From the NCBI RefSeq assembly GCF_006345805.1, contig NC_043004.1:61938001-62002000 (forward strand): a stretch of 64,000 nucleotides of DNA. Reading direction: 5' to 3'. Numbering within the stretch: the first letter of the stretch is position 1; each line of letters opens with the position of its first letter. Both the position numbers and the translations under genes were made by a program. The notes under the pieces are model-generated. The model searched no databases. It was given only the letters and a program-made list of their open reading frames with translations, and was not told the DNA's origin. Below are positions 11,805 through 43,759 of the stretch, piece after piece. This DNA comes from Octopus sinensis (lineage: Eukaryota).

Positions 11805-11875
<71 letters not shown>

Positions 11876-11982
11876 ATATATATATATTAAAATATTATTA
11901 GAGACAAAACCACTATTTTGCAAAACAAACAAGGAAAGACTTAATCAATACATAAAATTTTAATAAATAGTCAAAAAAACCG

Positions 11983-12024
11983 CCACTACAATCGTTTCTT
12001 GTCTGATCGACAATCTTCAGGTGG
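11983..12024 (-). ncRNA. Minimal type I hammerhead ribozyme
   Basis: CCAC-CTGAAGA-TTGTC-GATCA-GACAA-GAAAC-GATT-GTA^GTGG. Stem I CCAC/GTGG, stem II TTGTC/GACAA, intact core. Confidence 0.85.
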
Positions 12025-12054
12025 ACTTCCAATAATCAGTGTCAAATTTGAAGT

Positions 12055-12097
12055 CCACCTGAAGATTGTCGATCAACACAAGAAACGATTGTAGTGG
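12055..12097 (+). ncRNA. Minimal type I hammerhead ribozyme (one stem II mismatch)
   Basis: CCAC-CTGAAGA-TTGTC-GATCAA-CACAA-GAAAC-GATT-GTA^GTGG. Confidence 0.8.
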
Positions 12098-12301
12098 CGG
12101 TTTTTTGACTATTTATTAAAATTTTATGTATTGATTAAGTCTTTCCTTGTTTGTTTTGCCAAAATAGTGGTTTTGTCTCTAATAATATTTTATAATATTT
12201 TACTATAAAATCGATTTAATCCTAAATCTGATTTTTTCCCTGTAAATTTGGATTTATTCCCTAATATTTATTATTTATATATATATATATTATATATATA
12301 T

Positions 12302-12381
<80 letters not shown>

Positions 12382-12409
12382 ATATACATACATACTGCAT
12401 ACACACACG

Positions 12410-12543: not shown

Positions 12544-15135
12544 TGAGAAGATGTGACAGAGGAAAAAGGCGAGGTGGAGGTGTTGCTGTGTATGTTAAGT
12601 CTGAGCACAAGCCGTCCAGCGGTATTCTACCCACAAATGCTCAACCTACAACAAAATTCGATGCCGTCTATTGCAAGCTGAGCCTATCTGAGTTTTGCCT
12701 GCCCTGTTGGCTGTCTACAGGCCGCCTCTTGCCGACCCCCAGGACGATGCTCATTTAAGATGAGCGATAAGATTCGTTTCAGCTTCGCATGACTGTTTGG
12801 TACTAGGAGACTTCAACGCTCCCACGATCGATTGGCCCGCATCAATTTGTACAACATCTTCCCGGTTCGGCCAGGCCCTTCTCGACGTCGCTGAAGATTG
12901 TTTTCTATCGCAACATGTTGAATATCCGACAAGGCGTCGGTCTGGGCAGCAGCCATCTATGCTAGATCTGGTAGTCTCCCGCTATCCAACATCAGTGTCA
13001 GACGTATCTGTGTGCGCCCCTCTTGCCAAGAGTGATCATGCGGTCCTGAAGTTCGTCATGCACACATCTTTTTCTACGCCCACGATTACTTCGCTGCCAC
13101 GTAGAGTCTTCTCTGCAATTAATCTTGAAATTCTAACCGAGGCTTCCGCGCTTCTGGACTAGCGATCCCTGATGACGTTGTCCTCAGTTGACGAACTATG
13201 GTCATCCCTCAAAGCATATGTAATCTGTTTGACTGACCAGGCAGTTCCCGTTGGGCTTCCCAAGAGGAAGAAACACAAGCCCTGGGTGACGAAGAAGGTT
13301 AAACGAGAACGTCGACTCAGAGATATTGCTTGGGCTGAATTCAAAAATCTGGATTCGACTGCAGCTTTTGAGGTGTACAAAACTCAACGAGACCGAGCCG
13401 TGAAAATTGAAAAGAAAGAACGCTTCAGTTATGAATACAAAATCGCGGCTAATGCCAGTAGCAATCCAAAAGCCTTCTTTGCCCATGTCCAGCGGAATTC
13501 CCGCTTGAACAACCAGATTGCAACGCTGGTAGACTCAACAGGCGTATCGATTGAGGACCCTTATCAACAGAGTCAATTATTTGCCGAGGCTTTTTCAACT
13601 ATTTTCAAACAAGATGATGGTCGTGAACCCCCTCCATTTGATAGATCGGTACCTCCAATGCTTCGATTGGTCATCACGCGGGACGAAGTCAAACGTGTTA
13701 TTCAAGGCATCGATGTCAACAAGGGTCACGGCCCTGACGGCATACACCCACGGGTTATCAAAGCGTTGGCTCCAGTCATCTGCGAGCCCTTAACACGACT
13801 ATTCAATATGTCATTGGCGACGGGTGTTGTACCTGCAGACTGGAGAACAGCGATAATCTGCCCAATTTTCAAGAAAAGGAGCCGCGAAGACCCGCTTAAC
13901 TACCGACCGGTTTCCCGTACATCAATAATCAGCAAGATGTTCGAAACCATCCTTAAGAAAAGTATGATGCTCCACCTCCTAAACACAGCCTCGATCACTG
14001 ATTCCCAACACGGCTTCGTGCCGAAGAGATCATGCTTGTCCAACTTACTAGTAATGGAAGAATTGGTGACGCGCATCCTCGATGATAGTGATGCTGTTGA
14101 CATCGTTTTATTGGACTTTGCCAAAGCTTTTGACTCGGTAAACCACCGCCTACTACTTGTCAAGCTTCAAGCATATAGTTTCCATCCGGATATTGTACGA
14201 TGGGTTGGTGCCTTCCTCTCAGATCGCTCCTTCCAAGTCCAAGTTAATGGCTCGCGGTCCGACGTCTCCAGCGCGAGCAGTGGCGTGCCTCAAGGTTCAG
14301 TGCTTGGGCCCTTGTTGTTCTTAGTCTTCATAAATGACTTGCCCGACGACCTCACGCAACACACCCTTCTATTTGCCGACGATATCAAACTGGTCGCTCC
14401 TCGCGATAGTATAGAGGATCTTCGTCGATGCCTCCACCAAATTTGGAAGTGGTCTAACGATTGGGACCTGTGTCTGAACGTGTCAAAGTGCTGTCATCTG
14501 CCTGTCGGCTCTACTCCTGCAACTTGATTTCGAGCCGGGTCGTCTGCTGCTGGAGAGGACCGATCAGGTAAAGGACCTGGGTATCTTGGTGGATTCCTCC
14601 TTTTCGCCTTCGGCCCAGTGCGTCCATGCTGCCAACAAAGCACGCGGAATTCTGTTTTTGATTCGACGGTCATTCGGAATGCTCACAGCAGCCATATTCC
14701 TACCACTCTATGTCACGCTGGTGAGACCCATATTGGAGTACGGGATTCAAGCCTCTTCTCCTTATCTCCTCAAAGACATACAGCATGGTTCATGGTCTAA
14801 AAAATTTGTCCTACGAAGAAAGGCTGAGGACGCTCGACCTTTATTCTCTTGAAAAACGCCGCCGCCGTGGTGATCTCATTCTCGCCCACAACATCATAAG
14901 CGGGAAGTGTAACCTCTCGAAGGAGCTGTTCTTCACTCCTGCTCCAGAGCGTCGGCTGCGGGGTCATTCCGAAAAGCTCTACCTGCGACGATTTCATCTA
15001 AATCGAAGGAGAGGAGCTTTCTCCGTCCGGGTTGCAGATCCGTGGAACAAGCTGCCAGACGAGATGGTGAAGATGCCGACGACCGCTTTGTTCAAAGCCT
15101 CCCTGGACCTCATGTGGCCTGAACTCTTTACATGA
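12544..15135 (+). pseudogene. LINE ORF2 pseudogene split over ORFs 12537, 12797, 13172, 14586 and 14785
   Basis: Frame breaks near 12700-12780, a TAG at ~13160, a frameshift at ~14520 and an apparent short deletion at ~14785. The 451-aa RT core remains open. Confidence 0.9.
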
Positions 15136-17970: not shown

Positions 17971-18639
17971 TATAAGGATAAAAAATAAAATGGGGGGAGA
18001 TGTGGAGCGCAGTCACTAAGAGGAGGGGCTGTGTTGAGTCCGTGTGGGGTATTGGTTTGTAGAGTGAAGATGAAACGTTGCTCCAAGTGAAGCCTGGATT
18101 GTGGAGGACCGATGTGTGGGGCGAGACCAAAACACAGAGATGTCATCGGGAGAATACCTGGCCGAGCGGAAGTGACGAGCGAAGGGATAAAAGGACCGTA
18201 GACGAACATCCCTTATATGTTCGGCGAATTGTCTGACAACCGGCGTCCCGTCTGTCCTATATACAAGATGCCACAGAGGTTGCATTTAATGCAGTATATG
18301 AAGCCAGACGAAGTGCACGTAAAAGAATGTCTGATACGTACAGTTCGCTGGTTGGAACCGGTGACAGCAGTGGTGTTGATGATAAAGGGGCAGGTGTTGC
18401 AGCGGGATCTAGAGCACGGGAAAGATCCGTGTGGGGCTGAAGGGGAAGAAGAGAGGGTGCTATGGACCAGGAGGTCGTGTAGATTCCGGGCTCGTTTGAA
18501 GGAGGACAGGGGTGGGTTGGGGAAAATGGGGCGGGTCGTGCGATCGATCTGGAGGTGACGGAAGGCACGTAGTATCTTCCGACGAAGGGATAGAGTAGAG
18601 GGGTGGAAAAGGAGGTCATAAATGTTCGTGGAATTGCAT

Positions 18640-18913
18640 ATAGAAAGTTACCCTCCGAGGCACAAGTCTGGGCAAAGTAGTTTTATGGAAGACCAATTGT
18701 CGCTACATACTACATTCCCCTCTCAACGCCGCCCATGTTATCGAAAGGTATGGCGAAGACCGATATAGCTTGGCACTACCGACATTGCAACTCAATTCCA
18801 CAATAGAGTAAGTCGTAATAAAAGATCTTTCTGAATAACGCAAACAAAACAACCTGTTCCGGGAATTGAACTCTCTACCTCATCATTTTAAGCCCAACGC
18901 TCTAACCACTCAG
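18640..18913 (-). mobile_element. Degenerate tRNA-derived SINE (family B)
   Basis: Head (rc) CTGAGTGGTTAGAGCGTTGG...AGTTCAATTCCCGG. Body similar to 61190-61500 and 22860-23015. Confidence 0.6.
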
Positions 18914-26498: not shown

Positions 26499-26583
26499 TC
26501 ATCTATGGCCATTTCGGGGGCACATCACCATAGTTAGATTGCAATTGATGCATGTCATGGTAATGGCCCACTCGTCAGGATGA
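26499..26583 (-). ncRNA. Type I hammerhead ribozyme with extended stem II
   Basis: TCATC-CTGACGA-GTGGGC-CATTACCAT-(25 nt)-ATGGTGATG-TGCCCCC-GAA-ATGGCCAT-A^GATGA. Stem I TCATC/GATGA; stem III region is the palindrome ATGGCCAT. Confidence 0.85.
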
Positions 26584-26806
26584 ATAAAGAGATAGGATTC
26601 AAACACCAGACCAGGAAAAACCTTATCATACCGAAAGCCTAGTTTAATACTTAAAAAAACAAAGACTTTTTTTTCATTTTCAATTACATTGCTCAAAGGT
26701 CATTGACTATTTTTAATAAAGATAAAAACGCCGGTTTCAAACCCAGAATTAATTTAGGTGTGCCTCATGATAAATTTTATCCTGGTCTTGTATCCTATCT
26801 CTCTAT

Positions 26807-26892
26807 TCATCATGACGAGGGGGTCATTACCGTGATATGTATTAATTGCAATCTAACTATGGTCATGTGCTCCCGAAATGGCCATACGTGAA
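26807..26892 (+). ncRNA. Hammerhead copy with core mutation (C3>A)
   Basis: TCATC-ATGACGA-GGGGGTCATTACCGT...ATGGTCATGTGCTCCC-GAAATGGCCATA. Confidence 0.6.
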
Positions 26893-39390: not shown

Positions 39391-40460
39391 ATCACAAAAC
39401 CTTGCAAAGCTAAGTATATATTTATATTTAAGATTTTAAAATTTTAAATTTAAATATTTTAATAAGTCTTATTGTATAATTGTTATGTAGTGATTTAGTT
39501 ATCGTAGTTTTTCATATAATTATTAGATTTTAACTCTACGTTTATTCGTAGCCAAAGAGATATATAGATCATTAATAGTAATACGATTTTTTTTTAAAGT
39601 TAGGTTTCATGTATATACATGTATTGATAGCATAAATTTTAGTCTTTAATAACTATATTTTTTGATAGTTATTTTAAATATTTTATAATTTGTTATTATA
39701 ACTTATTGCTTTTTTCAATTGATAACGTGTAGTAGGATTTTTTTCATTGATAAATATATTCGTAGTATTTATTTGATACTTTATAACTACGGATTGATTA
39801 TTTCATTAAGTATTTTATTATTTCATTTTAGTTCTTAACTATATGGTTATTAATTAGCCAACAAGATATATGGATCGTTAATTAGTTATAGCGTTCTTTT
39901 AAGATAGTTTGTTTCTTTGTTTACAATTTGCTTTTTTCATCTTTAATCTTTTAATATATATATAAGTAATAATGAATAATTCATTTATTAGGTTTTTATT
40001 ATACGTGCATATATATTTATTGATAGAGATAATTTTAGATCTTAATTTTTATATTATATACATTTATATATATTCATTGATAATTTAGTTATTATTCAAA
40101 TATTATATAATTATTTGACTTGAAATTAAATTTAATAATATCAATAGTGATTTTTTGGATTTTATTTTTAATATTTAGGTAATTAGATATTGACTATAAC
40201 TGAGATTAGATTGTTTGTGCGTTTATTATGTTTTTTAAAGCCACATTATATATGAATAGACAAATACATTTTCTATCTATTCTTACATTAAAAATTAATA
40301 CTTAAAAATTAATATTTAACATTATAATCGATTGTATGACATAATCATAATCGTTAAAGTTTCAAGTTTGATAATAGAGTTTTTTATAAGAAAAATTATT
40401 TTATTTATTTTTTAAAAAGTATTGTTTAAATATATTTGATTATCTTTTAAATATTATCAT

Positions 40461-40557
40461 TAACCTGAAGATTGACTATAACCATAATTCGAATTATTAA
40501 TTGAATTTAAATTATTGTTATTCGAATTAGGTTATGGGCATGAAACAATCGTAGTGG
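40461..40557 (+). ncRNA. Hammerhead motif with long extended stem II (copy 1)
   Basis: CTGAAGA-TTGACTATAACC-A-TAATTCGAAT-(25 nt)-ATTCGAATTA-GGTTATGGGCAT-GAAAC-AATC-GTA^GTGG. Confidence 0.75.
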
Positions 40558-41753
40558 TTTTACTTTTTATCTTATATTAAACTTTTTAATACTTTTTGAT
40601 AGTTATATATGTTTAAAAAAGATTAAATATATATATGATTAAATAAATAAAAAATAAAAATAAAAATAAAAAAATATATATAGATAGATATATATATATA
40701 AATTGATAAGTATAAATTAATACTTTAAAATTTTTAAAATTTAAATATTTTAATAAGTCTTATTGTATAATTGTTATGTAGTGATTTAGTTATCGTAGTT
40801 TTTCATATAATTATTAGATTTTAACTCTACGTTTATTCGTAGCCAAAGAGATATATAGATCATTAATAGTAATACGATTTTTTTTTAAAGTTAGGTTTCA
40901 TGTATATACATGTATTGATAGCATAAATTTTAGTCTTTAATAACTATATTTTTTGATAGTTATTTTAAATATTTTATAATTTGTTATTATAACTTATTGC
41001 TTTTTTCAATTGATAACGTGTAGTAGGATTTTTTTCATTGATAAATATATTCGTAGTATTTATTTGATACTTTATAACTACGGATTGATTATTTCATTAA
41101 GTATTTTATTATTTCATTTTAGTTCTTAACTATATGGTTATTAATTAGCCAACAAGATATATGGATCGTTAATTAGTTATAGCGTTCTTTTAAGATAGTT
41201 TGTTTCTTTGTTTACAATTTGCTTTTTTCATCTTTAATCTTTTAATATATATATAAGTAATAATGAATAATTCATTTATTAGGTTTTTATTATACGTGCA
41301 TATATATTTATTGATAGAGATAATTTTAGATCTTAATTTTTATATTATATACATTTATATATATTCATTGATAATTTAGTTATTATTCAAATATTATATA
41401 ATTATTTGACTTGAAATTAAATTTAATAATATCAATAGTGATTTTTTGGGATTTTATTTTTAATATTTAGGTAATTAGATATTGACTATAACTGAGATTA
41501 GATTGTTTGTGCGTTTATTATGTTTTTTAAAGCCACATTATATATGAATAGACAAATACATTTTCTATCTATTCTTACATTAAAAATTAATACTTAAAAA
41601 TTAATATTTAACATTATAATCGATTGTATGACATAATCATAATCGTTAAAGTTTCAAGTTTGATAATAGAGTTTTTTATAAGAAAAATTATTTTATTTAT
41701 TTTTTAAAAAGTATTGTTTAAATATATTTGATTATCTTTTTAAATATTATCAT

Positions 41754-41850
41754 TAACCTGAAGATTGACTATAACCATAATTCGAATTATTAATTGAATT
41801 TAAATTATTGTTATTCGAATTAGGTTATGGGCATGAAACAATCGTAGTGG
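41754..41850 (+). ncRNA. Hammerhead motif with long extended stem II (copy 2)
   Basis: Identical to 40461-40557. Confidence 0.75.
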
Positions 41851-42212
41851 TTTTACTTTTTATCTTATATTAAACTTTTTAATACTTTTTGATAGTTATA
41901 TATGTTTAAAAAAGATTAAATATATATATGATTAAATAAATAAAAAATAAAATAAAAATAAAAAAATATATATAGATAGATATATATATATAAATTGATA
42001 AGTATAAATTAATACTTTAAAATTTTTAAAATTTTTACATTTTATATATTTTGTATATTATATTAATTAATTTCATTTCTATGTTTTGCTTTATGTTTCT
42101 CACTGTTTGGTTTGCTTAATAGTGGTTTTATCTCTAATTTAATATATATCTATACTGCAAAATTAGATTTAATCCTAAATCTAATTTTTGGATTACTCCC
42201 TAATATTATTAT

Positions 42213-42270
<58 letters not shown>

Positions 42271-43194
42271 ATATGTATGTATGTATGTATATGTATATAT
42301 GTATATATTAAGAGAAATAGAAACCTGATGATCTTATAAATGATACTAACTCCACATATACCTGTCGATTTGTAAATCGATATGCGAAGGTGTAATTATT
42401 GTTTAACTGTAAACTATTATTTAGAGAGGAAGTTTAACTATATTATTTGATAATGGTGATGTACACATAAGTTAAATTATTACAGTTCAAATAATGAGAG
42501 GGAATATAGGGAAATATAGCGAAAGAAAGAAAAACAGACAGTAAGAAAGAAAACCAGAACGATATTTTAAAGATCTAGATTTAGAGAATCTTGGTGTATA
42601 CTCCGGATGAATACTCTGTTTGTGTGAGAGAGCAATATTCTAATCATGTAAAACAATCATATTGACATTCAAATATATTCATGATCTCAGTGAGTTTCTC
42701 TGGATTACCTTTTTTCAGCTAGGAAAATTTTAGATGAATACTTCATTTTACATAATTCCAATATTTTTCAACAATTCTCTAGTTGATGCAGCTTCTCATA
42801 AATTTTATATTTAGATCCAGATCTAATTTTCAAGCTACATTTTCTTTCTGAACGTTTCTGATAGATGGATTGTGATTCTTTTGCTTTTATCAGATTTCCT
42901 CTGAAAGCATTACTAGGGTCGAAACAACTTTCAGCTGCATAGATTTGAATTTTGCCTTATAAATACTGTTGTCTCTATTACAGTTGCAACCCAACGGGCA
43001 CTTATCCTAAAAGGATATGATACGCTCCACTAAAAGGAAATGATACGCTATACTTTTGAACTATGCCTTATACATACATACGCACATACACGCGTACACA
43101 CACGCGCACAACACACGGTCCCCTAGCCCCTACCCGTATATAAACATACGTGCTTATATATATATATATAATTTGACACTGAATTATTGGAAGT

Positions 43195-43237
43195 CCACCT
43201 GAAGATTGTCGATCAAGACAAGAAACGATTGTAGTGG
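43195..43237 (+). ncRNA. Minimal type I hammerhead in a 160-bp cassette (43170-43332) within (TA)n
   Basis: CCAC-CTGAAGA-TTGTC-GATCAA-GACAA-GAAAC-GATT-GTA^GTGG. Confidence 0.87.
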
Positions 43238-43759
43238 CGGTTTTTTTGACTATTTATTAAAATTTATGTATTAATTAAGTCTTTCCTTGTTTGTTTTGCA
43301 AAATAGTGGTTTTGTCTCGAATAATATTTTATATATATATATTATATATATATATATTATATATATATATACATTATGTGTATATATGTATAAGTGTTTA
43401 TATAAGGTATAAGTTTAGAGATGTAAACTTTAGGAGTATCCAGAGGCACTCCTGGTAAATACCTCCGTACGTATGGTCCTTGGTATAAGATATACGGACG
43501 CAGATAATTTAAAAGGGTAAACCGTAGTATAATGTGTATATAGACGATCAGAAAATAGAGGAAAACAACAAATAGAAGTTAGTTTTGGTGCTAAAAAGCC
43601 ATTATTTAATTAGTTAAGCAAGGGGAAGCTGAGAGTGAGTTACTGTGCACCATATTGGGGTAAATAAGTATTTACCGCGTTGCAAATGGTAGACGTAATC
43701 AGTACTAAGAAGGCAGAGATAGACAAAGAGGAGGATAGAGCGAAAGATAGAGACAGAAT

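What the first reader, a model, noticed from the sequence alone, without database searches (positions are those of the whole stretch)
11888..12276. Sense/antisense twin-hammerhead fold-back cassette
Seen: ~140-bp inverted arms around a ~20-nt spacer, each carrying a complete hammerhead, so both strands encode a ribozyme. A unique 85-bp tail follows the right arm. Established: PLE insertions often carry an inverted, truncated pLTR at the 5' end. Inference: a full read-through RNA would form a long dsRNA that hides the ribozyme (a Dicer/ADAR substrate), whereas transcription starting in the spacer would yield active ribozymes in either direction.
Basis: partly seen in the sequence, partly recalled or inferred. 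Interest (0 to 1): 0.75.

Follow-up and report, generated by a model that had tools for sequence, protein, structure and literature searches.

The report
Head-to-head spliced Penelope leader copies
The two-ribozyme hairpin is one of many back-to-back short copies of the spliced front end of a Penelope-type jumping gene, likely made by priming both broken DNA ends on one messenger RNA; it is probably an insertion by-product rather than an RNA switch, but its sister copies hint that the element's predicted self-cutting RNA really cuts in the animal.

Summary
The inverted arms and both hammerhead motifs are real. They are two short copies of the 5' leader of a Hydra-clade Penelope-like retroelement, set head-to-head in (TA)n. 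The 'spacer' is the element's exon 1, spliced over a ~1.8-kb GT-AG intron. The 'unique tail' has 3,027 exact genomic matches. In 97 sampled insertions, 73 have an inverted partner and 72 of those end at the same tail-less site. The inversion point varies. Arms share subfamily variants at 194 of 195 sites, yet often do not nest. Best reading: both ends of a cut TA tract primed cDNA at two fixed sites on one spliced sense RNA, and the cDNAs joined by microhomology. Opposite-strand hammerhead pairs and the inverted copy with tail are in print; this scan noted this spliced family on other DNA. New lead: 5' ends of young arms avoid the hammerhead body (0 of 95) and form a second class just past the predicted cut site, a possible record of in vivo cleavage (about 0.5). 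No RNA evidence was obtained.

The parts
11809..11887 (.). (TA)n target tract, left side
   Evidence: sequence; no target duplication can be told inside the tract
11888..12054 (-). Short arm: spliced leader copy from the inferred transcription start (+1) to the short, tail-less end
   Evidence: alignment to a spliced sister copy, 3 single-base gaps; short end has 1,313 exact matches followed by TA
11983..12024 (-). Minimal type I hammerhead motif, predicted cut after 11987
   Evidence: descriptor scan; energies
12034..12054 (-). Exon 1 of the element (21 of 23 nt); splice junction between 12034 and 12033
   Evidence: same exon is followed by GTAAGT in long copies, 1,809-1,826 nt upstream of TTTTAG/ATTGG
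12050..12054 (.). Head-to-head junction: 5-nt microhomology GAAGT shared by both arms
   Evidence: four other copies have this junction class with one more A
12050..12191 (+). Long arm, part shared with the short arm; starts 9 nt before the hammerhead core, lacks exon 1
12055..12097 (+). Minimal type I hammerhead motif, predicted cut after 12093; self-complementary stem III octamer ACGATTGT
12192..12276 (+). 85-nt PLE tail between the two fixed 3' ends; in full-length elements it continues about 50 nt to the ATG
12277..12390 (.). (TA)n target tract, right side
   Evidence: sequence

Best explanation
The cassette is two short, spliced copies of the 5' leader of a Hydra-type Penelope-like retroelement joined head-to-head in a TA tract, likely made in one insertion event by two priming reactions on one sense messenger RNA, and it likely has no job of its own. 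Shown: family identity, spliced exon junction, two fixed 3' ends 85 nt apart, variable junction, arms that share variants but do not nest. Inferred: the element's GIY-YIG nuclease cuts both strands of (TA)n; each free 3' end primes reverse transcription, one at the short site and one at the long site (so one arm has the tail); both cDNAs run toward the RNA's 5' end, the rear one displacing the front one; the two cDNA ends then join through a few complementary bases (here GAAGT). The hammerhead appears twice only because it lies between the priming sites and the cap. This copy came from uncut RNA. A read-through transcript is predicted to be a 140-bp duplex.
For: [quoted passage not shown] 1,050 homologues at E<=1e-10; of the best 120, 120 have DK[TS] and 84 of 86 long ones CxCx5C. 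Splicing; 849 exact matches of the spliced junction 32-mer. Geometry: first 100 tail matches on C1 gave 99 loci, 97 after dropping two repeats of one context; 73 of 97 have an inverted partner, 72 of 73 partners end at the short site. One template: 194 of 195 polymorphic sites agree between arms in 44 pairs, against 28.5% mean discordance (minimum 16%) in 2,000 random pairings; 3 rare variants are shared by both arms. Two primings: in 15 of 40 young spliced pairs the tail-less arm reaches at least 6 nt further 5' than the tailed arm, so neither arm contains the other; four barely overlap (L081, L083, L127, L148). The window copy is non-nested too. In print: purified PAc cuts and extends both strands, starts at two internal sites that bound the tail, is predicted to be a dimer and uses uncut RNA (PMC11167929, parts 1-2 read).
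Against: No enzyme or RNA data for this family. Shared variants would also arise if only one source copy is active at a time, or by gene conversion between arms, so 'one RNA molecule' is not proven. 25 of 40 young pairs are nested or nearly so and fit snap-back as well; 2 of the 4 sister junctions of this class do. One pair is long-long (L130) and 24 of 97 tail copies have no partner found. Both long copies read have broken frames and Pfam found no RT or GIY-YIG on their pieces; no tree was built. No target-site duplication can be seen in the TA tracts.
Confidence: 0.8

Rival explanations
1. Single priming followed by snap-back or self-priming: one cDNA folds on itself and copies its own strand, or an antisense RNA self-primes, as proposed for rotifer Penelope.
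For: Explains arm identity and palindromes at junctions; 6 of 47 junctions are perfect palindromes. Proposed in PMC3846280 (passages read).
Against: Cannot give non-nested arms (15 of 40; this copy). Zero-loop palindromic joins at AATT, AGTACT or TCATGA fit two ends annealing better than a hairpin (inference). Exact intron loss needs a sense RNA, against the antisense-template version. Gives no reason for the fixed short end.
Confidence: 0.1
2. Functional twin-ribozyme switch or small-RNA source at this locus: read-through gives dsRNA for Dicer/ADAR, internal starts give active ribozymes.
For: Predicted 140-bp duplex. The left arm keeps nearly all of exon 1, and in Drosophila Penelope an intronless promoter construct is still transcribed (PMC2377424, passages read). 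Many such hairpins in introns could feed silencing of the family as a whole (inference).
Against: Young (arms 97-98% like sisters), one of many copies with variable junctions; no host gene seen nearby; monomer hammerhead fold disfavoured; right arm lacks exon 1.
Confidence: 0.05
3. A self-contained non-autonomous unit (retrozyme or MITE-like hairpin) that is transcribed and moves as one piece.
For: Non-coding, hammerhead-bearing, high copy; animal retrozymes derive from PLE repeats (bioRxiv 10.64898/2026.07.22.740005, part 1 read). One whole cassette occurs as a 3x tandem (L073/L074).
Against: Junction differs among copies (43 strings of 47; own string once); units are not head-to-tail arrays; the leader is the parent's spliced exon 1.
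Confidence: 0.03
4. Assembly or library fold-back artefact.
For: Several 1-nt indels in the arms; one sister locus (L009) has its flanks inverted too; no contig spans this junction.
Against: Different flanks, unequal arms with family-wide fixed ends, and head-to-head joints in contigs of another run (15 of 59 joints shown, all in X5).
Confidence: 0.02

Closest known systems
Hydra clade of C-terminal-endonuclease Penelope-like elements (Craig et al. 2021, PMC8557442; section 11, passages, and part 2 of 59 of the supplement read)
   Same: DKT and RWK-type motifs, CxCx5C linker, C-terminal nuclease region, hammerhead, (TA)n target, inverted 5'-truncated copy, tail at one end. Penelope-13_HM is listed with an inverted copy and a hammerhead on each strand; a Hydra family is listed for Octopus bimaculoides.
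   Different: Hammerhead differs from that of Hydra-1_Obim. Unit is 6.3 kb (listed Hydra are 1-3 kb) with a 1.8-kb leader intron and an asparagine-rich insert; tail is 85 nt, not 30-40; many copies are spliced leader-only pairs.
PAc (Poseidon) of Anolis, in vitro mechanism (Frangieh et al. 2024, PMC11167929; parts 1-2 of 4 read)
   Same: Cuts AT-rich DNA on both strands, two internal RT start sites that define the tail, hammerhead not needed for insertion.
   Different: Here both start sites lie upstream of the ATG; the genome shows them used on opposite ends of one insertion; a class of copies begins past the predicted cut site, whereas they found no reads ending at the cut.
Dual minimal hammerheads on opposite strands in Schistosoma PLE remnants (Cervera and de la Pena 2014, PMC4209133; parts 1-2 of 4 read)
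   Same: They report pairs of minimal motifs 100-700 bp apart on opposite strands, tied to truncated PLEs; palindromic stem III, dimer cleavage; an intron ending next to helix I in Drosophila Penelope.
   Different: They did not map arm ends, splicing state or junctions in the parts I read.
Adineta vaga Penelope head-to-head repeats (Arkhipova et al. 2013, PMC3846280; passages read)
   Same: Head-to-head inverted end repeats, junction palindromes, optional tail, TCACT initiator-like motif.
   Different: They favour self-priming on an antisense template with intron retention; these copies have lost the intron and often do not nest.
Twin priming of L1 (recalled, no call; a search for Penelope-like + twin priming + inverted listed 2 unrelated papers)
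   Same: Two target ends prime on one RNA and give an inverted 5' part.
   Different: L1 parts do not overlap and the second priming site is not fixed; here arms usually overlap fully and both sites are fixed.

Membership tests
Hydra-clade PLE (parent element) | DKG motif changed to DKT | tested here: met
   SDKT in L031 and L032; DK[TS] in 120 of 120 homologues
Hydra-clade PLE (parent element) | N-terminal RWK motif | tested here: met
   RIKWK, i.e. K in place of R; [RK]W[KR] in 112 of 120 homologues
Hydra-clade PLE (parent element) | CxCx5C linker before a C-terminal GIY-YIG nuclease, with CxxC and CxH near the end | tested here: met
   CTCRDKSNC, VVYKC...YIGST, CYLC, CRH read by eye in separate frames of two broken copies; Pfam gave no hit on these pieces; one listed homologue carries PF01541
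Hydra-clade PLE (parent element) | Hammerhead in the end repeat; insertion into (TA)n | tested here: met
   the tail is followed by TA-type repeat in the 99 loci printed
Hydra-clade PLE (parent element) | Short element (<3 kb, 'generally') | tested here: not met
   unit 6,267 bp, of which 1.8 kb intron and 1.6 kb between stop and exon 1; described as a tendency, not a rule
Hydra-clade PLE (parent element) | Phylogenetic placement within the Hydra clade; absence of CCHH | not tested
   no tree built; reference proteins not fetched
Minimal type I hammerhead ribozyme | Conserved core CUGANGA / GAAA / NUH with stems I and II | tested here: met
   both arms
Minimal type I hammerhead ribozyme | Self-complementary stem III for dimer folding | tested here: met
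   64 of 64 motifs caught by a pattern that fixed AC....GT have one of three self-pairing octamers (35 G-U, 19 A-U, 10 G-C); the related family at 40464 has a mismatch
Minimal type I hammerhead ribozyme | Self-cleavage | not testable with these tools
   only the indirect genomic footprint
Non-LTR retrozyme | Head-to-tail tandem units each with a hammerhead | tested here: not met
   copies are dispersed head-to-head pairs or single arms
Non-LTR retrozyme | Circular RNA | not testable with these tools
   only contigs available

The most novel reading that the evidence does not exclude
The family is a fossil record of two RNA templates used by one Penelope-type enzyme by twin priming: capped, spliced, uncut RNA (as in this copy) and RNA already cut by its hammerhead. 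Young arms start at -36..-9 (47) or +41..+64 (30) but never at -8..+40 (0 of 95); both arms of an insertion fall in the same class (19 and 12 pairs, none mixed in the sample); genome-wide, 14 arms start exactly at the first base after the predicted cut, 7 one base later, and few or none just before it. That would be in vivo evidence that a minimal PLE hammerhead cuts, and that cut RNA is still copied.
Probability: 0.5. Interest if true: 0.6.

Novelty: new member of a known kind. Interest (0 to 1): 0.35.

Why it matters
The locus itself is ordinary. The family matters because two questions on Penelope-like elements are open in the papers read: how head-to-head repeats and one-sided tails form, and whether the hammerhead cuts in vivo. 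Here a young, high-copy family gives countable answers: sense, spliced template; two fixed priming sites used on opposite ends; and a class of copies that may come from ribozyme-cut RNA. All of it can be tested with the published in vitro assay and with 5'-OH / cyclic-phosphate RNA sequencing.

Tried and rejected
Rfam: no hammerhead family matched; only hairpin-type microRNA models below threshold. Pfam on four ORF pieces: nothing relevant. ESM Atlas gave no answer. Expression: no RNA holder listed; runs guessed as RNA are contigs only, so strand, start and level cannot be read. Empty-site test: laying the left flank on 4 runs gave no cover next to the TA tract, so presence or absence in other animals is open. 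My first idea of a separate non-autonomous subfamily with its own leader was dropped when the leader proved to be exon 1. A cap-derived extra G before +1 is only a weak hint: 12 of 24 printed contexts have G where the genome has C, but in nearly all it can come from the partner arm; it is unexplained by the partner only in L058 and perhaps L080. Literature: six answered searches listed no paper on PLE twin priming or on copies starting at the hammerhead cut; subscription journals are not covered, I read no paper whole, and 58 of 59 supplement parts of PMC8557442 (searched for two terms only) and all supplements of the other papers were unseen and may bear on this. Search of earlier findings by sequence returned nothing.

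Full report
Observation. The region lies between two (TA)n tracts. The arms are 97% complementary over 141 nt and each carries a minimal type I hammerhead motif: + strand core at 12059 with the predicted cut after 12093, - strand core at 12020 with the cut after 11987. The descriptor gave three hits in the window and none in 30 shuffles. Rfam has no matching model. Positions below count from the first C of the core CTGAAGA as 0.

Family. The window lies in a 2.7-Gb genome, likely an octopus (closest named homologue from Argonauta; earlier notes). The arm has at least 358 candidates. Exact patterns give 3,027 tail copies, 1,313 tail-less ends followed by TA and 849 copies of the leader joined to the hammerhead. 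[quoted passage not shown] These are the marks of the Hydra clade (PMC8557442 section 11). The best 120 homologues share them. Pfam found nothing on the pieces and no tree was built. The unit is 6,267 bp, longer than listed Hydra elements.

The spacer is exon 1. The 23-nt leader occurs in long copies after TTTC and before GTAAGT, 1,809-1,826 nt upstream of TTTTAG/ATTGG in six arms of five loci; a seventh arm gave 2,350 nt to the nearest exact donor. Short copies join the exon exactly to the acceptor, and in the sample none extends upstream of the A in TCACTT; L234 is an exception that carries upstream sequence. In the window, the left arm runs from the short end to that A, with three 1-nt gaps, and overlaps the right arm by GAAGT; the right arm starts at -9 and ends at the long end. 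This junction string occurs once; four copies have the same class with one more A.

Geometry across copies. I took the first 100 tail matches on C1; two shared one locus, and two repeated another context, leaving 97. An inverted partner was found in 73, and 72 of these end at the short site; the search reached 1.5 or 7 kb upstream and includes older related subfamilies. Among 47 hammerhead-to-hammerhead junctions from all loci fetched (not a random set) there are 43 strings of 11-67 nt. So the 3' ends are fixed and the inversion point is not. Arms agree at 194 of 195 polymorphic sites in 44 pairs, against 28.5% discordance in random pairings, and share three rare variants. In 15 of 40 young spliced pairs the tail-less arm reaches further 5' than the tailed arm, so neither can be a copy of the other; the window copy is such a case.

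Mechanism. These facts fit two priming events on one spliced sense RNA, from the two ends of a cut TA tract, at two fixed sites 85 nt apart, with the cDNA ends joined by microhomology. The steps are inferred. They match the in vitro behaviour of PAc, which cuts and extends both strands, starts at two internal sites that bound the tail and uses uncut RNA (PMC11167929). Snap-back cannot give non-nested arms, and intron loss argues against the antisense-template model of PMC3846280 for these copies; 25 of 40 pairs remain compatible with snap-back, and shared variants could also reflect one active source at a time.

The ribozyme. Stem III is an octamer that stays self-complementary in three variants in 64 of 64 motifs caught (the pattern fixed its outer bases), as expected for dimer cleavage (PMC4209133). 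As a monomer the hammerhead fold is 5-7 kcal/mol above the best fold, and in a read-through RNA it is inside a -226 kcal/mol hairpin. The two motifs are on opposite strands and cannot pair in cis. No RNA evidence could be had.

A possible cleavage footprint. Of 95 young arms (at least 95% identical, not reaching into the intron), 47 start at -36..-9, none at -8..+40, 30 at +41..+64 and 18 further down. The cut would give a 5' end at +35. Pairs are 19 cap/cap and 13 post-cut/post-cut (12 without the repeated locus), none mixed. Genome-wide patterns found new 5' ends in 14 of 22 hits at +35, 7 of 23 at +36, 5 of 10 at +34 and 4 of 9 at +32; the other hits are point variants of whole motifs. By eye, the +34 and +32 cases are mostly internal deletions or bases lent by the partner arm, two being ambiguous. 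Against: the class peaks at +44..+50, 10-15 nt past the cut, which is also the 3' base of the predicted fold, so RT stalling on folded RNA fits too; two of the 14 share one context and one is ambiguous; L107 starts at +26; L261/L262 is a mixed pair. I put cleavage at about 0.5.

What is known. Opposite-strand pairs of minimal hammerheads from truncated PLEs (PMC4209133), the inverted copy and one-sided tail (PMC8557442, PMC3846280), and a Hydra element with a hammerhead on each strand (supplement) are in print. This scan has noted spliced head-to-head Hydra leaders in this genome before. My six literature searches found no account of PLE twin priming or of copies starting at the cut site, within the limits of the library.

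Verdict. Real, explained, a new member of a known kind; the locus is most likely an inert insertion product. Interest 0.35, carried by what the family says about PLE mechanism.

Noticed in passing
window 43155-43338 (+): Single spliced short arm of the same family with an intact hammerhead motif, in (TA)n, no partner.
   Followed up: partly
window 39428-42215 (+): Related AT-rich non-coding family: two tandem units of about 1,290 bp, 99% alike, each with a hammerhead motif with a ~70-nt stem II (cores near 40464 and 41757), ending in a similar tail before (TA)n; stem III octamer has a mismatch.
   Followed up: partly
window 26503-26887: Another inverted repeat whose arms hold a decayed hammerhead-like core (GACA in place of GAAA); likely an older head-to-head PLE remnant.
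   Followed up: partly
window 18213-18682 (-): Fragments of a GIY-YIG nuclease with a zinc-finger-like linker, likely another PLE clade (read by eye).
   Followed up: no
window 12764-15135 (+): Broken endonuclease plus RT frames of a LINE (CR1/L2-like by eye) 370 bp right of the cassette's TA tract.
   Followed up: no
L018, L020/L021, L095/L204: Junctions hold filler between the arms; in L018 (95 nt) and L020/L021 it is copied from the flank next to the insertion, as in end-joining with templated insertions.
   Followed up: partly
L147, L152, L164, L184, L185, L301: Copies with other splice choices: 4 extra bases after exon 1, or an acceptor about 9 nt upstream; a record of alternative splicing of the element.
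   Followed up: partly
L032, L033, L034, L190: Exon 1 with its splice donor is repeated about 0.55-1 kb apart in many long copies, so the promoter region may be duplicated.
   Followed up: no
L073/L074 (G000:C1:3735968-3736931): A whole post-cut-class cassette repeated three times in tandem; local duplication or assembly repeat.
   Followed up: no
L260, L292: Arms with the hammerhead core deleted between short repeats on either side.
   Followed up: no
L031:4400-5000 region and L032: Asparagine-rich insert between RT and nuclease in the parent ORF, like those described in rotifer Penelope.
   Followed up: no
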